Origin: Chthoniobacter sp.
Lineage (GTDB): Bacteria > Verrucomicrobiota > Verrucomicrobiia > Chthoniobacterales > Chthoniobacteraceae
Length of the DNA: 64,000 nucleotides
NCBI RefSeq assembly: GCF_040003245.1
Contig: NZ_JBDUCX010000002.1
Coordinates: forward strand, 1,519-65,518
Reading direction: 5' to 3'
Every line of letters begins with the position of its first letter. Positions within the stretch are counted from its first letter, which is position 1. The notes under the pieces are model-generated. The model saw only the letters and a program-made list of their open reading frames with translations. It made no database searches and was not told where the DNA came from. Of the stretch, positions 10,759-63,869 are shown piece by piece. Position numbers and translations under genes: made by a program.

Positions 10759-10818
10759 TGGCTCCCTTCGGACGGATATCCGTGACGTGCCGCCTCCTCG
10801 CTTCCCAGCAGATTTAGA

Positions 10819-10847
10819 TTGACAAACTGGTCAATAGATGCTACACT
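10819..10847 (+). promoter_or_regulatory. Near-consensus sigma70 promoter overlapped by an inverted repeat (operator-like)
   Basis: TTGACA (10819-24), 17-nt spacer, TACACT (10842-47); palindrome ATTGAC-aaactg-GTCAAT (10818-10835) covers the -35. Confidence 0.65.
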
Positions 10848-11128
10848 CCGGCGTGTAAGAGTTGGAATAGGCCGATCGGCGATTCGGGCAGGCGGGTAGT
10901 GAACGGAGGGAGGGCCGGTTTCGAGGCTCTTGGGGATGGCAATTCAGATAATGACAGGAAAGACCAATGACGCGTTTTGACAGACCGACGACAGACAAAA
11001 TCACCGTCCCCTGCCCTCAAGGCCGGAGCCGCGGCCTCGCGTACCCGAGGCAGGGCAATCGCCTCCATCCGAGCGGAGGCGAGAAGCCAGCCGGCGGCTG
11101 CCCAAAGGGTGGCGACGGCGGTCGCCAG

Positions 11129-11592
11129 CAATCGTGCCCAATCGTGCCTAATCGAGCCTCCTATTTTTTCCCCGTGGCCGCAGCCCTCGAAAGCGGCAGG
11201 TCCGCGGTCGGCCACGAGAATTCAGGACCAGTTCACTCTGGAGCATCGAGAAGTTCCGACTAGTTCCGGGCCAGTCAAATGCCTCGCCTCCCACTCACTT
11301 CTCTCTCCGCGCCTCGGCGTCTCCGCGGTTCCCGATCTTTGGTATCCCCGCCATCCAAAGCGGCTTCCGACCAGTTCCGACCCTACAAAATGCCGGCCTC
11401 CGACCTTGATTTCACTCCTTCGTGCCTTCGCGTCTTCGTGGTGTCATTCCCGCCACGATTCAAAACCAGTTTACTCTGGAGCTCCGGCCAGTTCCGACCC
11501 ATGGACAAGCGTATCCTGAGCGCCACCTCCCTCCAGAGCAATCGCCGTCAATCGCCTCCAATCGTGCCTAATCGTGCCTCAAATTTTTTCCG
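11129..11592. repeat. Cluster of short tandem and duplicated non-coding repeats
   Basis: 3x CAATCGTGCC-like decamers plus T-tract (11129-11171), 4x again at 11539-11592; CCAGTT(C/T)ACTCTGGAGC..AGTTCCG at about 11228 and 11466; CTCCGCG/CTTCG-periodic stretches at 11305-11330 and 11418-11443. Confidence 0.8.
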
Positions 11593-11683
11593 ACCTCGCT
11601 TGCCCGGCTCCTGGCGCTTCTTTGAGTTTCTGCAACGAAACTCGCCGTCCGCGGGTTGATGTCCTACACCTCCCATTCTCCTC

Positions 11684-13261
11684 ATGATCCGAATCGCTTC
11701 CCTCCCCCGTCTGCTCCTTCCCCTCATCCTGGCCGGCGCGACACTCGCCCTGCGCGCCGCCGATGCCCCCTTTCAGCCCAAGGCCGAGCACGTGCTCCTC
11801 GTCATCTGGGACGGGATGCGGCCGGATTTCATCAATGCCCAAAACACGCCGAACCTTCAGGCGCTGCTCGAGCGCGGGACGTTCTTTGCCAATAATCATT
11901 CGTTCTGGCCGACGACGACGGAGGTCAATGGCACGGTGCTGGCCACGGGAGCGTTTCCCGCGCGCAGCCATGTGGTCGCCAATCAGGAGTACCGGCCCGA
12001 CATCAATCCGCGCGGCCCGGTGCACACCGAGGACGCCGAGACGATGCGCAAGGGCGATGAACTGACCGGCGGCAAGTATCTCGGCGTAAAGACCGTCGCG
12101 GAGGTCGCGCATCAGGCCGGGCAGTCCACGGTCGTGGCGGGCACCAAACCCGTGGCGCTCATTCAGGACCGCGCTCCCGAGCGCCCGGCGCAGCCCCGGT
12201 CGGCCACGCTTTTCGCCGGGAAGACCTACCCCGCGGCCCTGCTCGATGCGATCGTCGCCGCGCTCGGACCGAATCCTCCCTACAAGCCGGACCCGACTCA
12301 CCCGGGGCCGAACACCGACGAGAACAACTGGACGACGCACGCGCTGCTCGAGCATCTCTGGCACGATGGCGTGCCGCGCTACTCGGTGCTGTGGCTCAGC
12401 GACCCGGATTTTCCACAGCACGTGAGCTCCCCCGGCGCCCCGGCGGCATTGACGGGCATTCACGACAGCGACACGAATCTCGGCCTGGTCGTCGCCGACC
12501 TGACCAAGCGCGGACTGCTCGACAAGACGGACATCTTCGTGGTGAGCGATCACGGCTTCAGCACCATCGGGCGCTCCGTGGATCCCGTGAAATACTACAA
12601 CGAGCACGGCGTAACCGTTTCCAAGCAATTCGCCTCCCCGCCGGCCAATGGGCAGGTGATGTCCGTCAGCGTCGGCGGCGCCACGGGGCTGTACGTCATC
12701 GGTCACGATGCGCCGACAATCGCCAAGCTCGTGGACCTGCTCCAGCAGAGCGATTTCGCCGGGCCGATCTTCACCCGCGACGCGCTGCCCGGCACCTTCG
12801 CGATCAACGCCGCGCATCTCGACAGCCCGGCGGCGCCTGACATCATTTTCAGCTTCCGCTGGAACGACGGCGCGAATGCGGTGGGCGCCCCCGGCCTGAT
12901 CACGGCGGAAGGCAAAGCCGGCCTCGGCATGCACGGTTCGCTCAGCAAATTCGACATTCACAACACGCTGGTGGCCGGCGGACCCGACATCCGCGCGGGC
13001 TATCGCGATGAGTTCCCCACCGGGAACATCGACGTGGCGCCCACGATCCTCCACCTGCTCGGGCTTACCTCACCGAATGGCGTGGATGGCCGCGTGCTCA
13101 CCGAGGCGCTCGCCGACACGCCCCTGCTCACGGAGAAACCGGTGACCAAGCGGCTCGAAGCCAGCAAGGATACCCACACCTGGCAGCAGTATTTGCAGAC
13201 CACCTCCTTCGCCGGCCGCACTTACTTCGACGAAGGCAACGCCTCCAGCGCGTCTCATTGA
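11684..13261 (+). CDS. Secreted alkaline phosphatase superfamily protein (nucleotide pyrophosphatase/phosphodiesterase type)
   Basis: Signal peptide; WDGMRPD, PTTT..N..LATG, DPDFPQH, SDHGF and MHG metal-ligand motifs. Confidence 0.85.
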   Translation: MIRIASLPRLLLPLILAGATLALRAADAPFQPKAEHVLLVIWDGMRPDFINAQNTPNLQALLERGTFFANNHSFWPTTTEVNGTVLATGAFPARSHVVANQEYRPDINPRGPVHTEDAETMRKGDELTGGKYLGVKTVAEVAHQAGQSTVVAGTKPVALIQDRAPERPAQPRSATLFAGKTYPAALLDAIVAALGPNPPYKPDPTHPGPNTDENNWTTHALLEHLWHDGVPRYSVLWLSDPDFPQHVSSPGAPAALTGIHDSDTNLGLVVADLTKRGLLDKTDIFVVSDHGFSTIGRSVDPVKYYNEHGVTVSKQFASPPANGQVMSVSVGGATGLYVIGHDAPTIAKLVDLLQQSDFAGPIFTRDALPGTFAINAAHLDSPAAPDIIFSFRWNDGANAVGAPGLITAEGKAGLGMHGSLSKFDIHNTLVAGGPDIRAGYRDEFPTGNIDVAPTILHLLGLTSPNGVDGRVLTEALADTPLLTEKPVTKRLEASKDTHTWQQYLQTTSFAGRTYFDEGNASSASH

Positions 13262-49340: not shown

Positions 49341-50819
49341 ATGAATACCAGCGGCCTTCTCCGAAAACACTGGTTTCACGTCTCGATGCATTTCGTGACG
49401 GACGCCCTGCTTTTCACCCTGGCGTTCGTTACGGCCATGTTTCTTCGTTTCGGCGGCGAAAGCGCCGGATCGCTTTGGGCGCATTGGCCCTTCTTCATTT
49501 TCGGCGGCATCGTCTTTTCCGCGACCATTTACATCGCCGGCCTTTACTCCACACACAGCGCCGGCCGCGGTGTCTTGGAACGCTCCCTGGTGTTGGTCGT
49601 CTGCGTGCTCCTCGCCGTCCTCATTGTCATTGGCGGCACTTACTTGAATTCCGCCCGTCCCTTGGGCCGCGGCATCATGCTGCTGGCCGCGATCACTTCC
49701 TACCTCACGGCGTTGCTCCACCACATCGTCATCGTGCACGATCTGCGCAATTCCAAGGAGCGCGTCGTCTACGTCGTCTGCAGCGCGTTCGACGAGGCGG
49801 AGACCCGCCTCTTCGCAAGCTTCGGCGGACGCAATCTGGAATTCGCCGGGGTGGTCCTCTACGGCGCCTATCGGCCGAAGAGCAATCTGCGCGTGCTGGG
49901 GACCGTCGAAGACCTCGCCGCGATCGTCCAAAAGGAGAAAATCTCCCGCGTGCTCTGCACCCACAAGAGCATGGGTGACACCACGCTCACCCGGCACTTC
50001 TGCAAACTGCGCTATTCCGGCATCTCGGTGATGCCTCTGGTTTCCCTCTGCGAGGAGATCGAGCAGTACGTCCCCCTGGAATTGATCAGCTCCGAGTGGC
50101 TGCTCAATGCCAGCGGTGAGCCCCAGCACATTTACATCAAGAAGCTCAAGCGGCTCTTCGACATTGTTTGCTCCGCGATCGGCCTCACCCTCGGCCTGCC
50201 CGCCGTGGCCCTGGCCGCCGTCGCCATCCGGCTCACTTCCCCGGGCCCGATCTTTTACCGGCAGACCCGCAGCGGCCGTTTCGGACGCGCTTTCCAGATG
50301 ACCAAGCTGCGCACCATGCACGTCAATGCCGAGAAGGACGGCGCGGTCTGGAGCGGCAAGGACGATCCGCGGGTGACGTTCGTGGGCCGCACGCTCCGCC
50401 GCTACCGCATCGATGAGATCCCGCAGCTCTGGCACGTGCTCTGTGGCCACATGTCCTTCGTCGGTCCGCGCCCCGAGCGCCCGGAAATCATCACCCAGCT
50501 CGCCCGCGAAGTTCCCTATTACGAAGAGCGCCTCATGGTGCAGCCGGGTCTCACCGGCTGGGCGCAGGTCAGCTATCCCTACGGCGCCTCCGCCCTCGAT
50601 TCCCGGCGCAAGCTGGAATACGACCTCTACTACATGAAACACATGAGCTTGTTCCTCGATGTGTTCATTCTCCTCGATACCGTCCGCATCATCCTCACCG
50701 GCGGCGCCCAACCGGCCACCCGCGCCATCACCGCCGACGAAACGATCCAGGAGTGGGAGCGCCTCAAGGAACAGCCCGCCCCCTCGACCAAGCCCAAGCT
50801 GGAACTCGAAACGGCGTAG
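49341..50819 (+). CDS. Priming polyprenyl-phosphate glycosylphosphotransferase (WcaJ/EpsB-like)
   Basis: Four N-terminal TMs; KRLFDI, KLRTM, DPRVT.VG..LRRYRIDEIPQLW, MSFVGPRPE, PGLTGWAQV, DLYY. Confidence 0.93.
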   Translation: MNTSGLLRKHWFHVSMHFVTDALLFTLAFVTAMFLRFGGESAGSLWAHWPFFIFGGIVFSATIYIAGLYSTHSAGRGVLERSLVLVVCVLLAVLIVIGGTYLNSARPLGRGIMLLAAITSYLTALLHHIVIVHDLRNSKERVVYVVCSAFDEAETRLFASFGGRNLEFAGVVLYGAYRPKSNLRVLGTVEDLAAIVQKEKISRVLCTHKSMGDTTLTRHFCKLRYSGISVMPLVSLCEEIEQYVPLELISSEWLLNASGEPQHIYIKKLKRLFDIVCSAIGLTLGLPAVALAAVAIRLTSPGPIFYRQTRSGRFGRAFQMTKLRTMHVNAEKDGAVWSGKDDPRVTFVGRTLRRYRIDEIPQLWHVLCGHMSFVGPRPERPEIITQLAREVPYYEERLMVQPGLTGWAQVSYPYGASALDSRRKLEYDLYYMKHMSLFLDVFILLDTVRIILTGGAQPATRAITADETIQEWERLKEQPAPSTKPKLELETA

Positions 50820-50910
50820 GGTTGGCCTGAACTTAGGAAACTGAGGACTTCGGTGGGGCCGCAGGCAGTGCCTTTAGGGATTGTCCCACAGAAAGCGCGC
50901 GCCCGAGGGC

Positions 50911-50996
50911 GGTGTAATCCTGAAATCTTGTAATCCTGTAATCCTGTCTAAAAAGGGGAGACAGGATTGACCAGATTATCAGGATTTCAGGATTAC
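50911..50996. repeat. Imperfect palindrome built from AATCCTG units (REP-like)
   Basis: GTAATCCTGAAATCTTGTAATCCTGTAATCCTGTCT...AGACAGGATTGACCAGATTATCAGGATTTCAGGATTAC; a degenerate relative lies at about 63195-63285. Confidence 0.8.
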
Positions 50997-51064
50997 GCGC
51001 ACCCACCTGCGATGATAGTTCCCGAACGCCAGGAGGGGAAGCCAGCAGCGCCGCTGAAGTTCTC

Positions 51065-51556
51065 TCAACGCGAGCCAGGGCTCACGGCGCGCTCGATATC
51101 TGCGATGACGATTTTTTTCATCTCGAACATCGCGCGCATGGCGTTGGCGGCGATCGTGCGATCCTCGCCGGAGATCAATTCCAGCAACCGGGCGGGGGTG
51201 ATCTGCCAGGCCAATCCAAACCGGTCGATCAACCAACCGCAGGGACGTTCTTCGCCGCCCTCGGTGAGCTTGCTCCAGAGCTCATCGATTTCGCCTTGGG
51301 TTTCGCATTCGACGAGGAGCGAGATCGCGTCGGTAAACTGGTTATCCGACCCCGCGTTCATGGCATAGAATTGCTGACCAGCCAGCTCGAAGGTGACGAG
51401 CATGACCGTCCCGGCGCGGTCGGGAACGGCGTCCGGGTAGCGGGTGATGGCGACGATGCGGCTGTTGGCAAACAGGGAGGTGTAGAAGCGGGCGGCTTCT
51501 TCGGCCTGGGTCTCGAACCAGAGGAACGTGGTGATTTTTTGGCGGAGCTGGATCAT
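51065..51556 (-). CDS. VOC/PhnB-like protein (3-demethylubiquinone-9 3-methyltransferase family)
   Basis: Start re-called to ATG 51556; QKITTFLWF..QAEEAA.FY.SLF, AISLLV.CETQ.EID..W..L, CGWLIDRFGLAWQI. Confidence 0.88.
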   Translation of the reverse strand: MIQLRQKITTFLWFETQAEEAARFYTSLFANSRIVAITRYPDAVPDRAGTVMLVTFELAGQQFYAMNAGSDNQFTDAISLLVECETQGEIDELWSKLTEGGEERPCGWLIDRFGLAWQITPARLLELISGEDRTIAANAMRAMFEMKKIVIADIERAVSPGSR

Positions 51557-51710
51557 TTTCGTTTCGGTTTTCGCATGGGAGGAGATGGATGCGTGCGGTT
51601 CAGATCCGGGCATGGAAACCCCGTACCTGTTTAGCCGAGCGCAGAGAAGAAGTCCAAGCCAGCCCAAGCACGGCAGCGCCTACGCCCTGCTGCTCCTTCC
51701 GCCATTCCAT

Positions 51711-52220
51711 CCATTTTGAGGCCGCAAAGTGAGATTTTCCGCAATGGAGCCCATAGAGCCAATGGAGCAATGCACTTTTTTCGCCGAGTCATGCCACACT
51801 TCCCCGCATGAACACCGAGGACTTTCCACCACGCCCCCCACCACCAGGCCGCCCACTTCCCAGCGACTATGTAGGAATCAGGAAAGCAGGAGCCGAGACT
51901 TGGCGAACCGCAGATGATGCCAGGGCGGAGGCGTGCAGCCCGATGCCGAAGGCATCCCAGCGCCCATAGCCGGTGGTTGAGCGAAGCGACACCACCGGAA
52001 AGGATGCGGCAAAACGGCTCACCCCAAGGGGATGGCAGCCCTTGTTCAATTCAAGCCGAATCAAGGTAAATCAAGGCAATCAAGGTGCGAAAAAATGGGC
52101 AGCAGTACTGGACAACCGCGCTCGAGGGCCGACGTACGTCAAGAGGTCCCGTGGGCGAAGAAAAGGAGCCGTTTTAAGGTGCCTTAAGCCCTCTTAAGCC
52201 AATTTAAGGTGCGAGTTTTT
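51711..52220 (+). repeat. Modular non-coding element, copy A
   Basis: Co-linear with the reverse complement of 63047-63869; includes a 43-bp block with 1 mismatch (52173-52215 vs 63055-63097) and a 25-bp identical block TCAAGCCGAATCAAGGTAAATCAAG. Confidence 0.88.
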
Positions 52221-52253
52221 AAAAAACAGCGGTCTTGGACCCTTGAATACTGC

Positions 52254-53318
52254 CTAGCCGACCGTCTCCCCCGCGGACCCGAAGGCCTGCGTGATCCAGC
52301 GGCGCATCTGCTTCGCCGGGCGGATGTGCTCGAGATAGTACGCATGGTTCGCCCGCGACATCGCCCGCGCTTCCTCGTCGTTTTCCAGAAGACGCACACA
52401 ATGCACCACACATTGCTCCGGCGTCTCATACTCCCGGTAATTGCGCGGCGCGGTAAATGGCTCGACCAAGGTATGGCGAAATCCGGAAGCCACGATGCAC
52501 ATCGAAGCCGCCGTGTACTCACCCAGCTTCCAGGCCATGGCGTGATGCAGGCCCTTCGTATAAATTCCCACCCGGCACGTCTGCATCGTCTTCAAATATG
52601 CGGAACGCCGGGTGTCCCAATGGCAGACGACATCGGGATACTTCTCGCGCGCGAAGGGCGTCGGCACGGCTCCACCCACGAAGCGTTCCCCCAGTTCCTT
52701 GCGCAAGGCGCGCACCACCCCCACGCGCTCCTCGTTGATCTCCGGGGCAAACGGCGCGCCGGTCACTTCCGACTCCATCCACAGCCGCGTCTGGAGCAGA
52801 ACGCGCGGCGGCAGATCGTGGTCCGGCGGTCGCTCAAAATCGCGAGTGACCGGCAGCCGCAAATAATCGCTCAAATGACGCAGGCTCTCCTTCGCCCGCT
52901 TCGGTCGCTGGCTCGCGTAGCGCACCCAACCCGCGAGCAGCGACAGCATGCCCCGGCGATTGCCGGGTCCGAAGATGGGGCCGAATGGCGAGACCTTGCA
53001 GCGCGCTTCGGGCTCCAGCTTGGCGACATCCGGTGGGTAGTGGCTGCGCTTGAAATACACGTCACTGGCGCGCAGTTCCGCTGCACTGAAAAGGTAACTG
53101 CGGTCGTGAATATCGAAGCACACCCGGAGCCGCGCACCGTCCGCGATGCGCTCGATTTCAGTGACGATCGTGTACTCCTCGACCTGGCTGCGCGCGTCCC
53201 ACGACAGCTCGATCTCCCCGGCTTGCGCCAGCTCGAGGAACGCGGTGTAGAGGTAGAAGACCTGCGTCGATTCCAGCAGCGGCAGCAGCGACGCCGAGAC
53301 GCGATAGGCGGCAGCCAT
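52254..53318 (-). CDS. Hypothetical protein with GT-B-like C-terminal region
   Basis: Start re-called to ATG 53318; DVYFKRS, YL..MQ.CRVGI...GLH...WKLGEY resemble Glyco_trans_1_2-type proteins. Confidence 0.55.
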   Translation of the reverse strand: MAAAYRVSASLLPLLESTQVFYLYTAFLELAQAGEIELSWDARSQVEEYTIVTEIERIADGARLRVCFDIHDRSYLFSAAELRASDVYFKRSHYPPDVAKLEPEARCKVSPFGPIFGPGNRRGMLSLLAGWVRYASQRPKRAKESLRHLSDYLRLPVTRDFERPPDHDLPPRVLLQTRLWMESEVTGAPFAPEINEERVGVVRALRKELGERFVGGAVPTPFAREKYPDVVCHWDTRRSAYLKTMQTCRVGIYTKGLHHAMAWKLGEYTAASMCIVASGFRHTLVEPFTAPRNYREYETPEQCVVHCVRLLENDEEARAMSRANHAYYLEHIRPAKQMRRWITQAFGSAGETVG

Positions 53319-63046: not shown

Positions 63047-63869
63047 AAAAAAATCTCGCACCTTAAATCGGCTTAAGAGGGCTTAAGGCACCTTAAATCC
63101 GCAGCCTTTTTTTGCCGAGAGGCTTCCGATCTGGCTCGAGCAGGCCCCGGGGCGACAACCGAAATACGAGAATCAGCGGCGGAAGTCGCCTGCCCCGTAT
63201 CCTGAATCTCCTGAGAATTTGGCAATCCCGTCTGCCGCCTTTAGACAGGATTAGCGGACTCAACAGGATTCCAAGATTACACCGTCCTTGGGATACGCCC
63301 TTTCTGTTGCCGAGCAGGCACATGAGAAAACTCGGGACCTTGAGAATGCTTGATTTACCTTGATTCGGCTTGATTCCCGCGACCGCTGCCACCCCTTTGA
63401 GGTGCGCCGTTTCGGCATCATTTCCGATGGCGTCGCTTCGCTCAACCACCGGTTATGGGGCGCGGGGATGCCTCCCGCATGAAATTTGGGGATTCATACC
63501 GCCCTTTTGTAGTCAACCTGACGGAACCACGTGACCCTGGTCTCCGAAGAGGAATCAATCAGGAACCGGGCGAACCACCTCCGCCCGCCTCCGGGATTTG
63601 ACCCATCGCACCCTGAGCGTTTATGCCTCGCGCCTCCGCCCACGGCATTATCTGCGGTTGGCCCAGCCTCGGCTTCTACTTCCTGCTTTCCTGCTTTCCT
63701 GATTCCTAAATAGCAGACGGAAAGTGGACGGCCCGGCGGTGGTGGGCGTGGTGGAAAATCCTCGGAGTTCATGCGGGCAAGTGTGGCATAACCCGGCGGA
63801 AAATGTGCATCGCTCCATGGGTTCCATTGGCTCCATTGCGGAAAATCCACTCGGCGCCCCTCAAAATGG
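63047..63869 (-). repeat. Modular non-coding element, copy B (inverted, with two insertions relative to copy A)
   Basis: Reverse complement aligns block by block with 51711-52220; extra segments at about 63100-63335 and 63480-63625. Confidence 0.88.

What the first reader, a model, noticed from the sequence alone, without database searches (positions are those of the whole stretch)
52048..52220. Microarrays with about 10-bp (one helical turn) period followed by an A/T tract, recurring with different core sequences
Seen: TTTAAGGTGC/CTTAAGCCCT/CTTAAGCCAA/TTTAAGGTGC-GAG-TTTTT (52173-52220, inverted at 63047-63097); TCAAGCCGAA/TCAAGGTAAA/TCAAGGCAA/TCAAGGTGCG-AAAAAA (52051-52095, inverted at about 63338-63374); CAATCGTGCC x3-4 plus T6 (11129-11171, 11539-11592); CCAGTTCCGA units (11361-11390); CAATGGAGC x3 plus T6 (51742-51782). 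The architecture is shared while the core differs, and the TTAAG array is the best-conserved part of the inverted element (42/43 bp). Established: iterons, phased operators and centromere-like sites use helical phasing, and A-tracts bend DNA. Inference: selected protein-binding or bending arrays of an undescribed family.
Basis: partly seen in the sequence, partly recalled or inferred. Interest (0 to 1): 0.62.

Follow-up and report, generated by a model that had tools for sequence, protein, structure and literature searches.

The report
Dispersed phased decamer-array intergenic repeats
The 10-base "microarrays" are real, but they are the conserved cores of a large family of non-coding repeat modules scattered between the genes of this soil Verrucomicrobium (genus Chthoniobacter), not control sites for the neighbouring genes; what binds them, if anything, is still unknown.

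Summary
Observation confirmed, with one correction: the CAATGGAGC array has period 9, not 10. Each array is the core of a dispersed repeat module. In this 6.7-Mb genome nhmmer finds 159 CAATGGAGC, 91 TCAAG, 78 TTAAG and 86 AATCGTGCC modules. Intergenic arrays with a 10-bp lag number 278, against 10 at lag 11. A/T tails follow 74-80% of period-9/10 arrays, against 28% of random intergenic windows, and sit in phase with the units. The flagged stretch belongs to a mosaic element found 68 times: CAATGGAGC module at one end, TTAAG module at the other, with an optional REP-like hairpin and TCAAG array between. Sister species lack these elements at orthologous sites. Copy numbers swing from 137 to 0-6 within the genus, and 150 sampled genomes of the phylum have none. 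Iterons, centromeres, gene-specific operators, MITEs, structured RNAs and canonical terminators are not supported; predicted curvature is modest. Conserved cores with variable spacers, strict 10-bp phasing and orientation bias still favour recognition by some factor. This scan noted the same kind before in another soil Verrucomicrobium (e1-3189229). Closest published analogues are TAACTGA, STRR, STAR and BIME repeats.

The parts
51711..51830 (+). Module M1, the left end of the mosaic element. It holds a head with CAAAGTGAG/ATTTTCCG, CAATGGAGC x3 at period 9 (51742-51768), ATGCAC, T6 (51776-51781), an extended -10-like TGcCACACT (51792-51800) and a conserved CATGAAC (51807-51813).
   Evidence: 159 nhmmer copies. 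The information profile peaks on the array, on TG..A..ACT and on GCATGAAC.
51963..52012 (+). Module M2, a REP-like hairpin (CCGGTGGT-TGAGCGAAGCGAC-ACCACCGG) that is optional inside the mosaic element.
   Evidence: About 25 copies in this genome. The 34-nt hairpin recurs at 88-94% identity in many genomes of the genus and in one genome of another family. Similar hairpins flank the RAYT-like Y1_Tnp genes.
52051..52095 (+). Module M3: a TCAAG decamer array (4 units, the third spaced by 9) followed by A6.
   Evidence: 91 copies; ATCAAG core conserved, spacers variable; 3-8 units per array.
52145..52226 (+). Module M5, the right end of the mosaic element. It holds a head GGCGAAGAAAAGGAGCCG, TTAAG x4 at exactly 10 bp (52173-52215), then T5A6.
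   Evidence: 78 copies; nearly invariant; 68 co-oriented M1->M5 pairs; 4 units in 72 of 78 arrays.
63047..63116 (-). Second, inverted copy of module M5.
   Evidence: (I2, 87% over 67 nt).
63338..63412 (-). Second, inverted copy of module M3 (TCAAG array) with its flank.
   Evidence: (I3).
63750..63865 (-). Second, inverted copy of module M1.
   Evidence: (I1, 159 nt at 86%).
11109..11171 (+). Module M6: an AATCGTGCC decamer array (3 units) followed by TATTTTTT.
   Evidence: (86 copies).
11534..11592 (+). Module M6: head CCAGAG, 4 AATCG(C/T)(C/G)CC units, then CAAATTTTTT. It ends 92 nt upstream of the start of the co-oriented gene at 11684.
   Evidence: (downstream gene co-oriented in 64 cases against 20).
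11229..11500 (+). Chain of smaller modules of the same grammar. Heads CAGTT(C/T)ACTCTGGAGC precede CAGTTCCGA units, and there are two octamer arrays (CCGCGNCT, CTTCGTGN).

Best explanation
The arrays are the cores of short non-coding modules belonging to a lineage-specific, dispersed mosaic repeat system. It resembles BIME/STAR/STRR/TAACTGA repeats, but is built from 9-10-bp units.

A module has three parts: a short head (CAGAG/CTCTG type), 3-8 head-to-tail units, and an A/T tail. Each unit has a conserved 5-8-nt core that starts with AAT/TT, plus a variable 2-5-nt spacer. The tail occupies the place where the next unit's A/T-rich core would be.

Modules are copied as wholes to new intergenic sites and are combined into mosaics. 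The flagged stretch is the right half of one such mosaic. That mosaic has a CAATGGAGC module at the left end and a TTAAG module at the right end, with an optional REP-like hairpin and a TCAAG array in between.

Arrays other than TTAAG gain and lose units by slipped-strand mispairing.

The mechanism I consider most likely is inferred, not shown. A sequence-specific protein binds head to tail, once per helical turn, on one face of the DNA. The A/T tail serves as the terminal, easily deformed element. Such a platform would serve the element's own maintenance or spread, or a general nucleoid or transcription-linked role, not the control of particular neighbouring genes.
For: Shown:
- High copy numbers per module: 159, 91, 78 and 86.
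- Arrays are the most repeated segments of the intergenic regions.
- 93% of period-10 arrays are intergenic.
- 68 co-oriented M1->M5 composites fall in two size classes. They favour convergent (23) over divergent (6) gaps.
- Genes beside AATCGTGCC modules are unrelated.
- The elements are absent at orthologous sites in the two closest species. There the two genes flanking 50820-52253 are convergent, with only a short gap between them.
- Copy number turns over within the genus: TCAAG arrays 137 here, 6 in the nearest relative, 0-2 elsewhere; TCGTG arrays 54 here, 100 in the nearest relative, 0 in G031.
- 0 of 150 sampled genomes of the phylum carry the array.
- Unit number varies from 3 to 8.
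- Strict lag: 48 hits at period 10 against 0 at period 11.
- Cores are conserved while spacers vary, both among copies and among Verrucomicrobiota of other orders.
- The A/T tail is specific to periods 9-10.
- Orientation bias relative to neighbouring genes: AATCGTGCC 64:20; stand-alone TCAAG 32:12 with the upstream gene; TCAAG arrays in other genomes 35:8 and 29:10.
- One AATCGTGCC array is kept upstream of the orthologous LacI-like gene in Chthoniobacter sp. bin.029, although the rest of that intergenic region no longer aligns.
Against: - No binding protein, mobilising enzyme, target-site duplication or terminal inverted repeat was found.
- The RAYT-like genes are flanked by hairpin REPs, not by arrays.
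- Orientation bias differs between families and is absent for the mosaic as a whole.
- Periods 7 and 8 are also enriched, so helical phasing is not universal.
- Predicted curvature is weak.
- The TTAAG array has a fixed unit number and is partly palindromic, so it behaves differently from the other arrays.
- The same cores occur in distant Verrucomicrobiota. This could mean a conserved host factor, not a selfish element.
- Gene calls used for the orientation tests were my own crude ORF model.
Confidence: 0.55

Rival explanations
1. RNA-level elements. The mosaic would be a small transcription unit: the extended -10-like motif in M1 drives a short non-coding RNA that ends at the TTAAG module's weak hairpin plus U run. 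The polar stand-alone arrays would be unstructured protein-binding tracts in 5' leaders or 3' UTRs, as proposed for TAACTGA repeats.
For: In M1 the most conserved positions outside the array are TG, A and ACT, spaced as TGnNAnACT, and CATGAAC 7 nt further on. M1 and M5 are always co-oriented, in 68 pairs. RNAalifold draws a 10-bp stem GUGCCUUAAG/UUUAAGGUGC, then 3 nt, then U6-8. Arrays are unstructured as RNA. Orientation bias relative to transcription is seen. Strong sigma-70-like promoters lie upstream of array chains at 10819-10847 and in bin.029. The analogy is PMC4679880.
Against: The consensus scan finds no promoter or terminator in 50800-52300. No -10-like hexamer shows sense/antisense asymmetry genome-wide. 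The hairpin is no more stable than shuffled sequence, z about 0. There is no covariation and no Rfam match. The mosaic shows no orientation bias.
Confidence: 0.15
2. Gene-specific operator arrays. Each core family would be the regulon of one DNA-binding regulator that binds tandem direct repeats, such as an OmpR/PhoB-type response regulator or a ribbon-helix-helix protein like ParR, MetJ or omega. The A/T tail would be a -10 or UP-like element.
For: The geometry fits: a 6-7-nt conserved core plus a 3-4-nt spacer, repeated 3-5 times at 10 bp. This matches what I know of Pho boxes and ParR iterons. AATCGTGCC arrays point at the downstream gene (64:20). Several amino-acid biosynthesis genes are among them, judged by eye from N-termini. 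In some other Verrucomicrobiota the A/T tail abuts a TTGACA-like hexamer. One array is kept at an orthologous gene.
Against: Whole modules, flanks included, are homologous copies. There are 78-159 sites per family next to unrelated genes. Arrays are absent upstream of orthologues in sister species. The families are nearly absent from most of the genus. Mosaics prefer convergent gaps, 23:6. Distances to start codons are broad.
Confidence: 0.1
3. Protein-independent structural DNA. Phased AAT/TTAA cores plus an AnTn tail would make intrinsically curved or easily melted DNA that acts by shape alone.
For: A/T-rich trinucleotides recur every 9-10 bp, and the tail falls in phase. A wedge-model estimate gives 28.5 and 28.9 degrees for the CAATGGAGC and AATCGTGCC modules, against 19.6 +/- 6.9 for random intergenic 80-mers.
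Against: The TTAAG array scores 21.4, which is background, and the TCAAG array 24.2. Shape alone does not explain why specific G/C-containing cores are conserved across orders while spacers drift.
Confidence: 0.07
4. Functionless minisatellites. Slippage at short direct repeats next to A/T runs would create arrays, and ordinary duplication would scatter them, with no factor recognising them.
For: Unit number varies, and some arrays are locally homogenised. Turnover between species is rapid. Stop codons in all three frames are about as frequent as I estimate, from base composition, for any 10-nt unit.
Against: Units within one array differ in their spacers but share the core. The same cores recur in distant orders with different spacers. 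Period 11 is at background. There is orientation bias. The TTAAG module is nearly invariant over 78 copies while its flanks are about 75% identical.
Confidence: 0.13

Closest known systems
TAACTGA direct repeats of marine Beggiatoaceae, Cyanobacteria and Bacteroidetes (PMC4679880), and the STRR heptamer repeats of heterocystous cyanobacteria (STRR from my own knowledge: Mazel et al. 1990)
   Same: Both are short contiguous direct repeats of 2-6 or more copies at more than 100 intergenic sites per genome. They are polar relative to neighbouring genes and unstructured as RNA. Downstream genes show no functional pattern. Distribution across lineages is patchy, and function is unknown. TAACTGA repeats and the TTAAG array both place stop codons in all three frames.
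   Different: Units here are 9-10 bp, not 7. Each unit is a conserved core plus a variable spacer, not an identical unit. There are several core families per genome. A head motif and an in-phase A/T tail are present. The arrays mostly lie 50-250 nt from start codons, not directly against them. They are combined into larger mosaics.
BIMEs / REP elements of Enterobacteria and pseudomonads, with RAYT transposases
   Same: Both are extragenic mosaics built from a small set of modules. They are highly repeated, prefer gaps after gene ends, and are lineage-specific. The long form here even includes a REP-like hairpin, and the genome encodes 8 Y1_Tnp proteins, three of which are flanked by such hairpins.
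   Different: The arrays are direct repeats with no significant hairpin. They do not flank the RAYT-like genes.
STAR elements of Staphylococcus aureus (PMC3532100)
   Same: Both are interspersed intergenic direct repeats. Loci expand and contract. Locations are not conserved between species, and copy number is unrelated to phylogeny.
   Different: STAR repeats are separated by spacers, whereas here the units are contiguous with a 10-bp period and an A/T tail. That STAR units are GC-rich and the spacers about 40 bp is from my own knowledge, not from the part of the paper I read.
Tandem direct-repeat operators and centromeres (Pho boxes of PhoB/PhoP; parC iterons of ParR; omega heptads; MetJ boxes), from my own knowledge
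   Same: Both have a conserved 6-8-nt core repeated head to tail at 7-11 bp, which in those systems is bound cooperatively on one face of the helix.
   Different: Those systems sit at one or a few loci, tied to a cognate gene or regulon. Here there are hundreds of homologous copies with no cognate gene nearby.
   Same: It is apparently the same kind of element in the same phylum. TCAAA/TCAAG units co-occur in arrays I saw in other Verrucomicrobiota.
   Different: It is a different genome with a different core variant. It is an unchecked AI note, not an independent confirmation.

Membership tests
Plasmid/chromosomal iterons | A cluster of repeats at a replication origin beside a rep/dnaA gene and an A+T-rich unwinding element; one or a few loci per replicon. 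| tested here: not met
   There are 78-159 dispersed copies per family. Neighbouring genes are glycosyltransferase, VOC-family, DegT and similar. No rep gene is present.
Centromere-like par sites (parC/parS) | A repeat array adjacent to a parAB or parMR operon; few sites per replicon. | tested here: not met
   The same copy numbers apply, and no par genes flank either copy.
REP/BIME (REPIN) elements | The units are imperfect palindromes that form stable hairpins. | tested here: not met
   Fold z-scores range from -0.7 to +0.9 for all array modules on both strands. Only the separate M2 module is a hairpin.
REP/BIME (REPIN) elements | Association with a RAYT (Y1 transposase) gene that is flanked by the same repeats. 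| tested here: not met
   There are 8 Y1_Tnp matches. The three best-scoring matches are flanked by inverted hairpin repeats. One weaker match has direct TGCGATT arrays upstream, but none is flanked by arrays.
MITEs | Terminal inverted repeats and target-site duplications. | tested here: not met
   The ends of 68 mosaics show no TIR and no consistent duplicated flank. No inverted same-family pairs enclose a gene at 0.6-4 kb for M3, M5 or M6.
Interspersed short tandem direct repeats (STRR / TAACTGA / STAR kind) | Short contiguous direct repeats at many intergenic sites, non-coding, lineage-specific, with variable copy number. | tested here: met
   No frame conservation is seen.
Intrinsic (Rho-independent) terminators | A stable G+C-rich hairpin immediately followed by a U run, co-oriented with the upstream gene. 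| tested here: inconclusive
   The consensus scan finds none in the element. The TTAAG module can form a 10-bp A/U- and G.U-rich stem, then 3 nt, then U6-8, but its energy equals that of shuffles. The upstream gene is co-oriented in 42 cases against 27.
Response-regulator / RHH operator arrays (regulon) | Sites upstream of a functionally coherent gene set that is conserved between related species. | tested here: not met
   Downstream genes are unrelated by sequence. Arrays are absent at orthologous promoters in G015 and G031. One conserved case exists.
Known RNA families (Rfam 15) | A match to a curated covariance model. | tested here: not met
   No hits at the gathering threshold over the window, and none at E<=1 over 51650-52270.

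The most novel reading that the evidence does not exclude
Soil Verrucomicrobiota carry a so far undescribed class of polar cis-elements. These would be head-to-tail decamer arrays with a conserved AAT-led core and an in-phase AnTn tail, serving as loading platforms for an unidentified oligomerising nucleic-acid-binding protein. That protein would act co-transcriptionally, for example in factor-dependent termination or insulation, or as a post-transcriptional regulator of the TRAP/HutP/CsrA type. Different core families would be read by paralogous factors.
Probability: 0.2. Interest if true: 0.7.

Novelty: new variant of a known kind. Interest (0 to 1): 0.45.

Why it matters
If a factor reads these arrays, hundreds of sites per genome would define a new genome-wide layer of DNA or RNA organisation in a poorly studied but abundant soil phylum. 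The strict 10-bp lag would point to how that factor binds. Even if the arrays are selfish or neutral, they matter in practice. They fill long intergenic regions and can mimic operators, iterons or ncRNA genes. They probably break short-read assemblies. They turn over fast enough to serve as strain markers. They also offer a natural series (3-8 units, several cores, fixed tail) for testing how tandem sites evolve.

Tried and rejected
- Composite transposon bounded by the two inverted copies: rejected. The 10.6 kb between them holds ordinary genes (GH3, sulfatase, CinA, YkuD, DegT).
- Small protein gene starting at the conserved ATG of M1: rejected. Copies differ by frameshifts and the ORFs end anywhere between 11 and 185 codons.
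- Selection for stops in all six frames, since the TTAAG array places TAA in every frame on both strands. 54% of period-10 arrays stop all frames on one strand, against 1-6% of random windows. My own estimate from base composition is that any 10-nt unit does so about 45% of the time. I treat it as a by-product.
- Restriction-site decoy: CTTAAG is rare (265 sites, 162 intergenic, mostly from M5), but it is not depleted against a Markov expectation. Uninformative.
- Sigma-70 promoter or terminator scans: nothing found in the element.
- -10 hexamer strand asymmetry, to support the M1 promoter idea: none found.
- Structured RNA: no fold signal, no covariation and no Rfam hit.
- Curvature with a wedge model: weak (parameters from memory).
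- Exact 19-mer of the TTAAG module in 185,579 species genomes: 0 hits. The period-9 pattern hits mostly unrelated phyla, probably coding repeats.
- Literature searches for Chthoniobacter or Verrucomicrobia intergenic repeats found nothing relevant.
- Several early gene-calling scripts had a bug. The orientation statistics use the corrected calls.

Full report
**1. The observation**

All quoted arrays are present at the stated places.
- The TTAAG array (52173-52215) has its four TTAAG cores exactly 10 bp apart. T5A6 follows at the position where a fifth core would start.
- The TCAAG array (52051-52089) has cores at 0, 10, 20 and 29, and A6 follows at 39-41.
- In the AATCGTGCC arrays (11129-11171, 11539-11592) the AAATTTTTT tail again starts about one unit after the last AAT.
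- The CAATGGAGC array (51742-51768) has period 9, not 10.
- The inverted copy of the TTAAG core differs at one base in 43.

**2. More than chance**

Genome-wide, a 5-mer repeated three times at a fixed lag gives these counts by lag:

| Lag | 6 | 7 | 8 | 9 | 10 | 11 | 12 | 13 | 14 | 15 |
|---|---|---|---|---|---|---|---|---|---|---|
| Observed | 164 | 183 | 66 | 266 | 296 | 24 | 166 | 20 | 67 | 137 |

A third-order Markov control gives about 20 at each lag.

Restricted to intergenic DNA, the counts are 132 (p7), 52 (p8), 130 (p9), 278 (p10), 10 (p11) and 5 (p13). The exact pattern ATCAAG-N4 x3 occurs 48 times here. The period-11 version occurs 0 times and the reversed control 0 times.

But periods 7-9 are enriched too, each with its own core families such as AACATCC, CAGTGCT, CACGAAGG and CCGCGGAG.

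The A/T tail is specific to periods 9-10. A run of five or more A/T lies within 18 nt of an array end in 80% of period-10 arrays and 74% of period-9 arrays. The figure is 18% for period 7 and 28% for random intergenic windows.

**3. What the arrays belong to**

The window lies in a 6.68-Mb, 62% G+C draft genome of 408 contigs.

BLAST of the 586-bp gap 51668-52253 against the genome gives about 220 HSPs on 132 contigs. Coverage peaks exactly on the arrays. Iterated nhmmer finds these module counts:

| Module | Core | Copies |
|---|---|---|
| M1 | CAATGGAGC | 159 |
| M2 | hairpin | 25 |
| M3 | TCAAG | 91 |
| M5 | TTAAG | 78 |
| M6 | AATCGTGCC | 86 |

M1 and M5 occur as 68 co-oriented pairs in two size classes, with spacing of about 75 nt or 245-500 nt. 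The flagged stretch is therefore the right half of one long-form mosaic element, and 63047-63865 is a second, inverted copy.

Across families the grammar is the same:
- a head of the CAGAG/CTCTG type (CCAGAGT, TTTACAGAGG, TTTACTCTGGA);
- 3-8 units;
- a tail (AAATTTTTT, GAAAATTT or CATGAAT).

Intergenic regions such as 10759-11683 are chains of such modules.

**4. Not local regulatory sites**

The genes between the two copies are ordinary.

In the two closest species (88% and 84% amino-acid identity for the glycosyltransferase gene), that gene and the sugar-transferase gene are convergent, with only a short gap between them. Here a 1.4-kb segment lies between them. It holds an AATCCTG heptamer palindrome, a VOC-family gene and the mosaic.

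The orthologous promoter region of the gene at 11684 has no arrays in those two species. Only the proximal 60 nt or so can be aligned by eye.

Genes downstream of M6 are unrelated.

Within the genus, array counts are as follows:

| Array family | This genome | G015 (nearest relative) | Other genomes |
|---|---|---|---|
| TCAAG, period 10 | 137 | 6 | 0-2 |
| TCGTG, period 10 | 54 | 100 | mostly 0, at most 5; 0 in G031 |

In G015 the TCGTG arrays are often long and homogeneous. A 250-kb sample of G031 has no decamer arrays but 112 heptamer arrays per Mb, mostly as inverted pairs. None of 150 evenly sampled high-quality genomes of the phylum has the ATCAAG triple.

Even so, the same cores occur in scattered Verrucomicrobiota of other orders, including subdivision 3, peat MAGs and Opitutales. 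There too the spacers vary and A/T tails follow. One M6 array is retained upstream of the orthologous LacI-like gene in Chthoniobacter sp. bin.029.

**5. Clues to how they work**

*Conservation is periodic.* ATCAAG and ATCGTGCC are conserved while the spacers drift, both among copies and among phyletically distant genomes. This is hard to explain by neutral slippage.

*Unit number.* It varies for TCAAG (3-8), TCGTG (3-5) and ATGGA (3-7). It is fixed at 4 in 72 of 78 TTAAG arrays.

*Orientation.*
- M6 points at the downstream gene, 64:20.
- Stand-alone TCAAG arrays are co-oriented with the upstream gene, 32:12.
- TCAAG arrays in other genomes are co-oriented with both neighbours, 35:8 and 29:10, with 21 same-sense against 0 antisense in co-directional gaps.
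- The mosaic as a whole shows no strand preference but favours convergent over divergent gaps, 23:6.

*No structure.* None of the modules folds better than shuffled sequence. There is no covariation and no Rfam match.

*Possible promoter in M1.* Outside the array, the most conserved positions spell TG-n-NAnACT, followed 7 nt later by CATGAAC. This is the profile of an extended -10 promoter and its start site. The consensus scan finds no promoter, and I could not establish the organism's -10 consensus.

*Possible terminator in M5.* The TTAAG module can be drawn as a 10-bp stem, then 3 nt, then U6-8, but the stem is weak.

*Not coding.* The ORF from the conserved ATG is not frame-conserved.

*Curvature.* Predicted curvature is only modestly raised for M1 and M6, and not raised for the TTAAG array.

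*Mobilising enzyme.* The genome's RAYT-like genes are flanked by hairpin REPs that resemble module M2, not by arrays.

**6. Reading**

The best-supported account is a lineage-specific, fast-turning-over mosaic repeat system. Its modules are built on 9-10-bp units. The mosaics behave like BIMEs in placement, and the arrays behave like STRR/TAACTGA/STAR repeats in form.

Three features make recognition by a factor the most likely reason for the architecture:
- the strict 10-bp lag;
- conserved cores with free spacers;
- the in-phase A/T tail.

I cannot decide from sequence whether that factor serves the element or the host, or whether it acts on DNA or RNA.

I used it as a lead, not as evidence.

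**7. Novelty and score**

I found no publication describing these elements. The nearest published kinds are TAACTGA repeats (PMC4679880), cyanobacterial heptamer repeats (10.1101/2022.06.06.494920) and STAR elements (PMC3532100). I rate this a new variant of a known kind, with interest 0.45.

Noticed in passing
window 50820-52253: This 1.4-kb segment is absent from the two closest species. There the flanking glycosyltransferase and sugar-transferase genes are convergent, with only a short gap between them. The segment holds an AATCCTG heptamer palindrome, a 3-demethylubiquinone-9 3-methyltransferase/VOC-family gene and the mosaic repeat.
   Followed up: partly
window 51963-52012 (also 63410-63459): The hairpin CCGGTGGT-TGAGCGAAGCGAC-ACCACCGG recurs at 88-94% identity in many genomes of the genus and in one genome of another family of the order. 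Similar hairpins flank RAYT-like Y1_Tnp genes at G000:C403 and C387. It is probably a REP/RAYT system separate from the arrays.
   Followed up: partly
window 50902-50996 and 63223-63292: An imperfect palindrome built from AATCCTG/CAGGATT heptamers sits just after the stop of the sugar-transferase gene. In relative G031 such inverted heptamer-array pairs are very common, at 112 heptamer arrays per Mb.
   Followed up: partly
window 10819-10847: A strong sigma-70-like promoter (TTGACA-17-TACACT with TG) lies about 830 nt upstream of the next credible gene (11684). The space between is a chain of array modules, so these may lie in a long 5' leader.
   Followed up: partly
window 11625-11670; L242 and L243: A short promoter-proximal motif is conserved upstream of the orthologous phosphodiesterase-like gene in three species: CTCGCCnTCsGCGGnTTkAwk...yAyACy. 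It may be the real core promoter.
   Followed up: no
G015 (e.g. C300:14112-14216, C304:19297-19401, C94:6209-6323): The nearest relative carries long, homogeneous TCGTGCCTGA or TCGTGCYCAG arrays of 10 or more units. In this genome the same family has 3-5 heterogeneous units.
   Followed up: no
whole genome: CTTAAG occurs only 265 times in 6.7 Mb, and 162 of these are intergenic. Most of the intergenic ones are the two palindromic sites inside each of the 78 TTAAG modules.
   Followed up: partly
L056 (Chthoniobacter sp. bin.029) vs G000:C114:7602-9000: An AATCGTGCC array with an A/T tail is kept about 140-160 nt upstream of an orthologous LacI-family regulator gene in two species, although the rest of the intergenic region no longer aligns.
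   Followed up: partly
It lies in a low-G+C stretch (55%) next to small antitoxin-like ORFs. I did not examine it.
   Followed up: no
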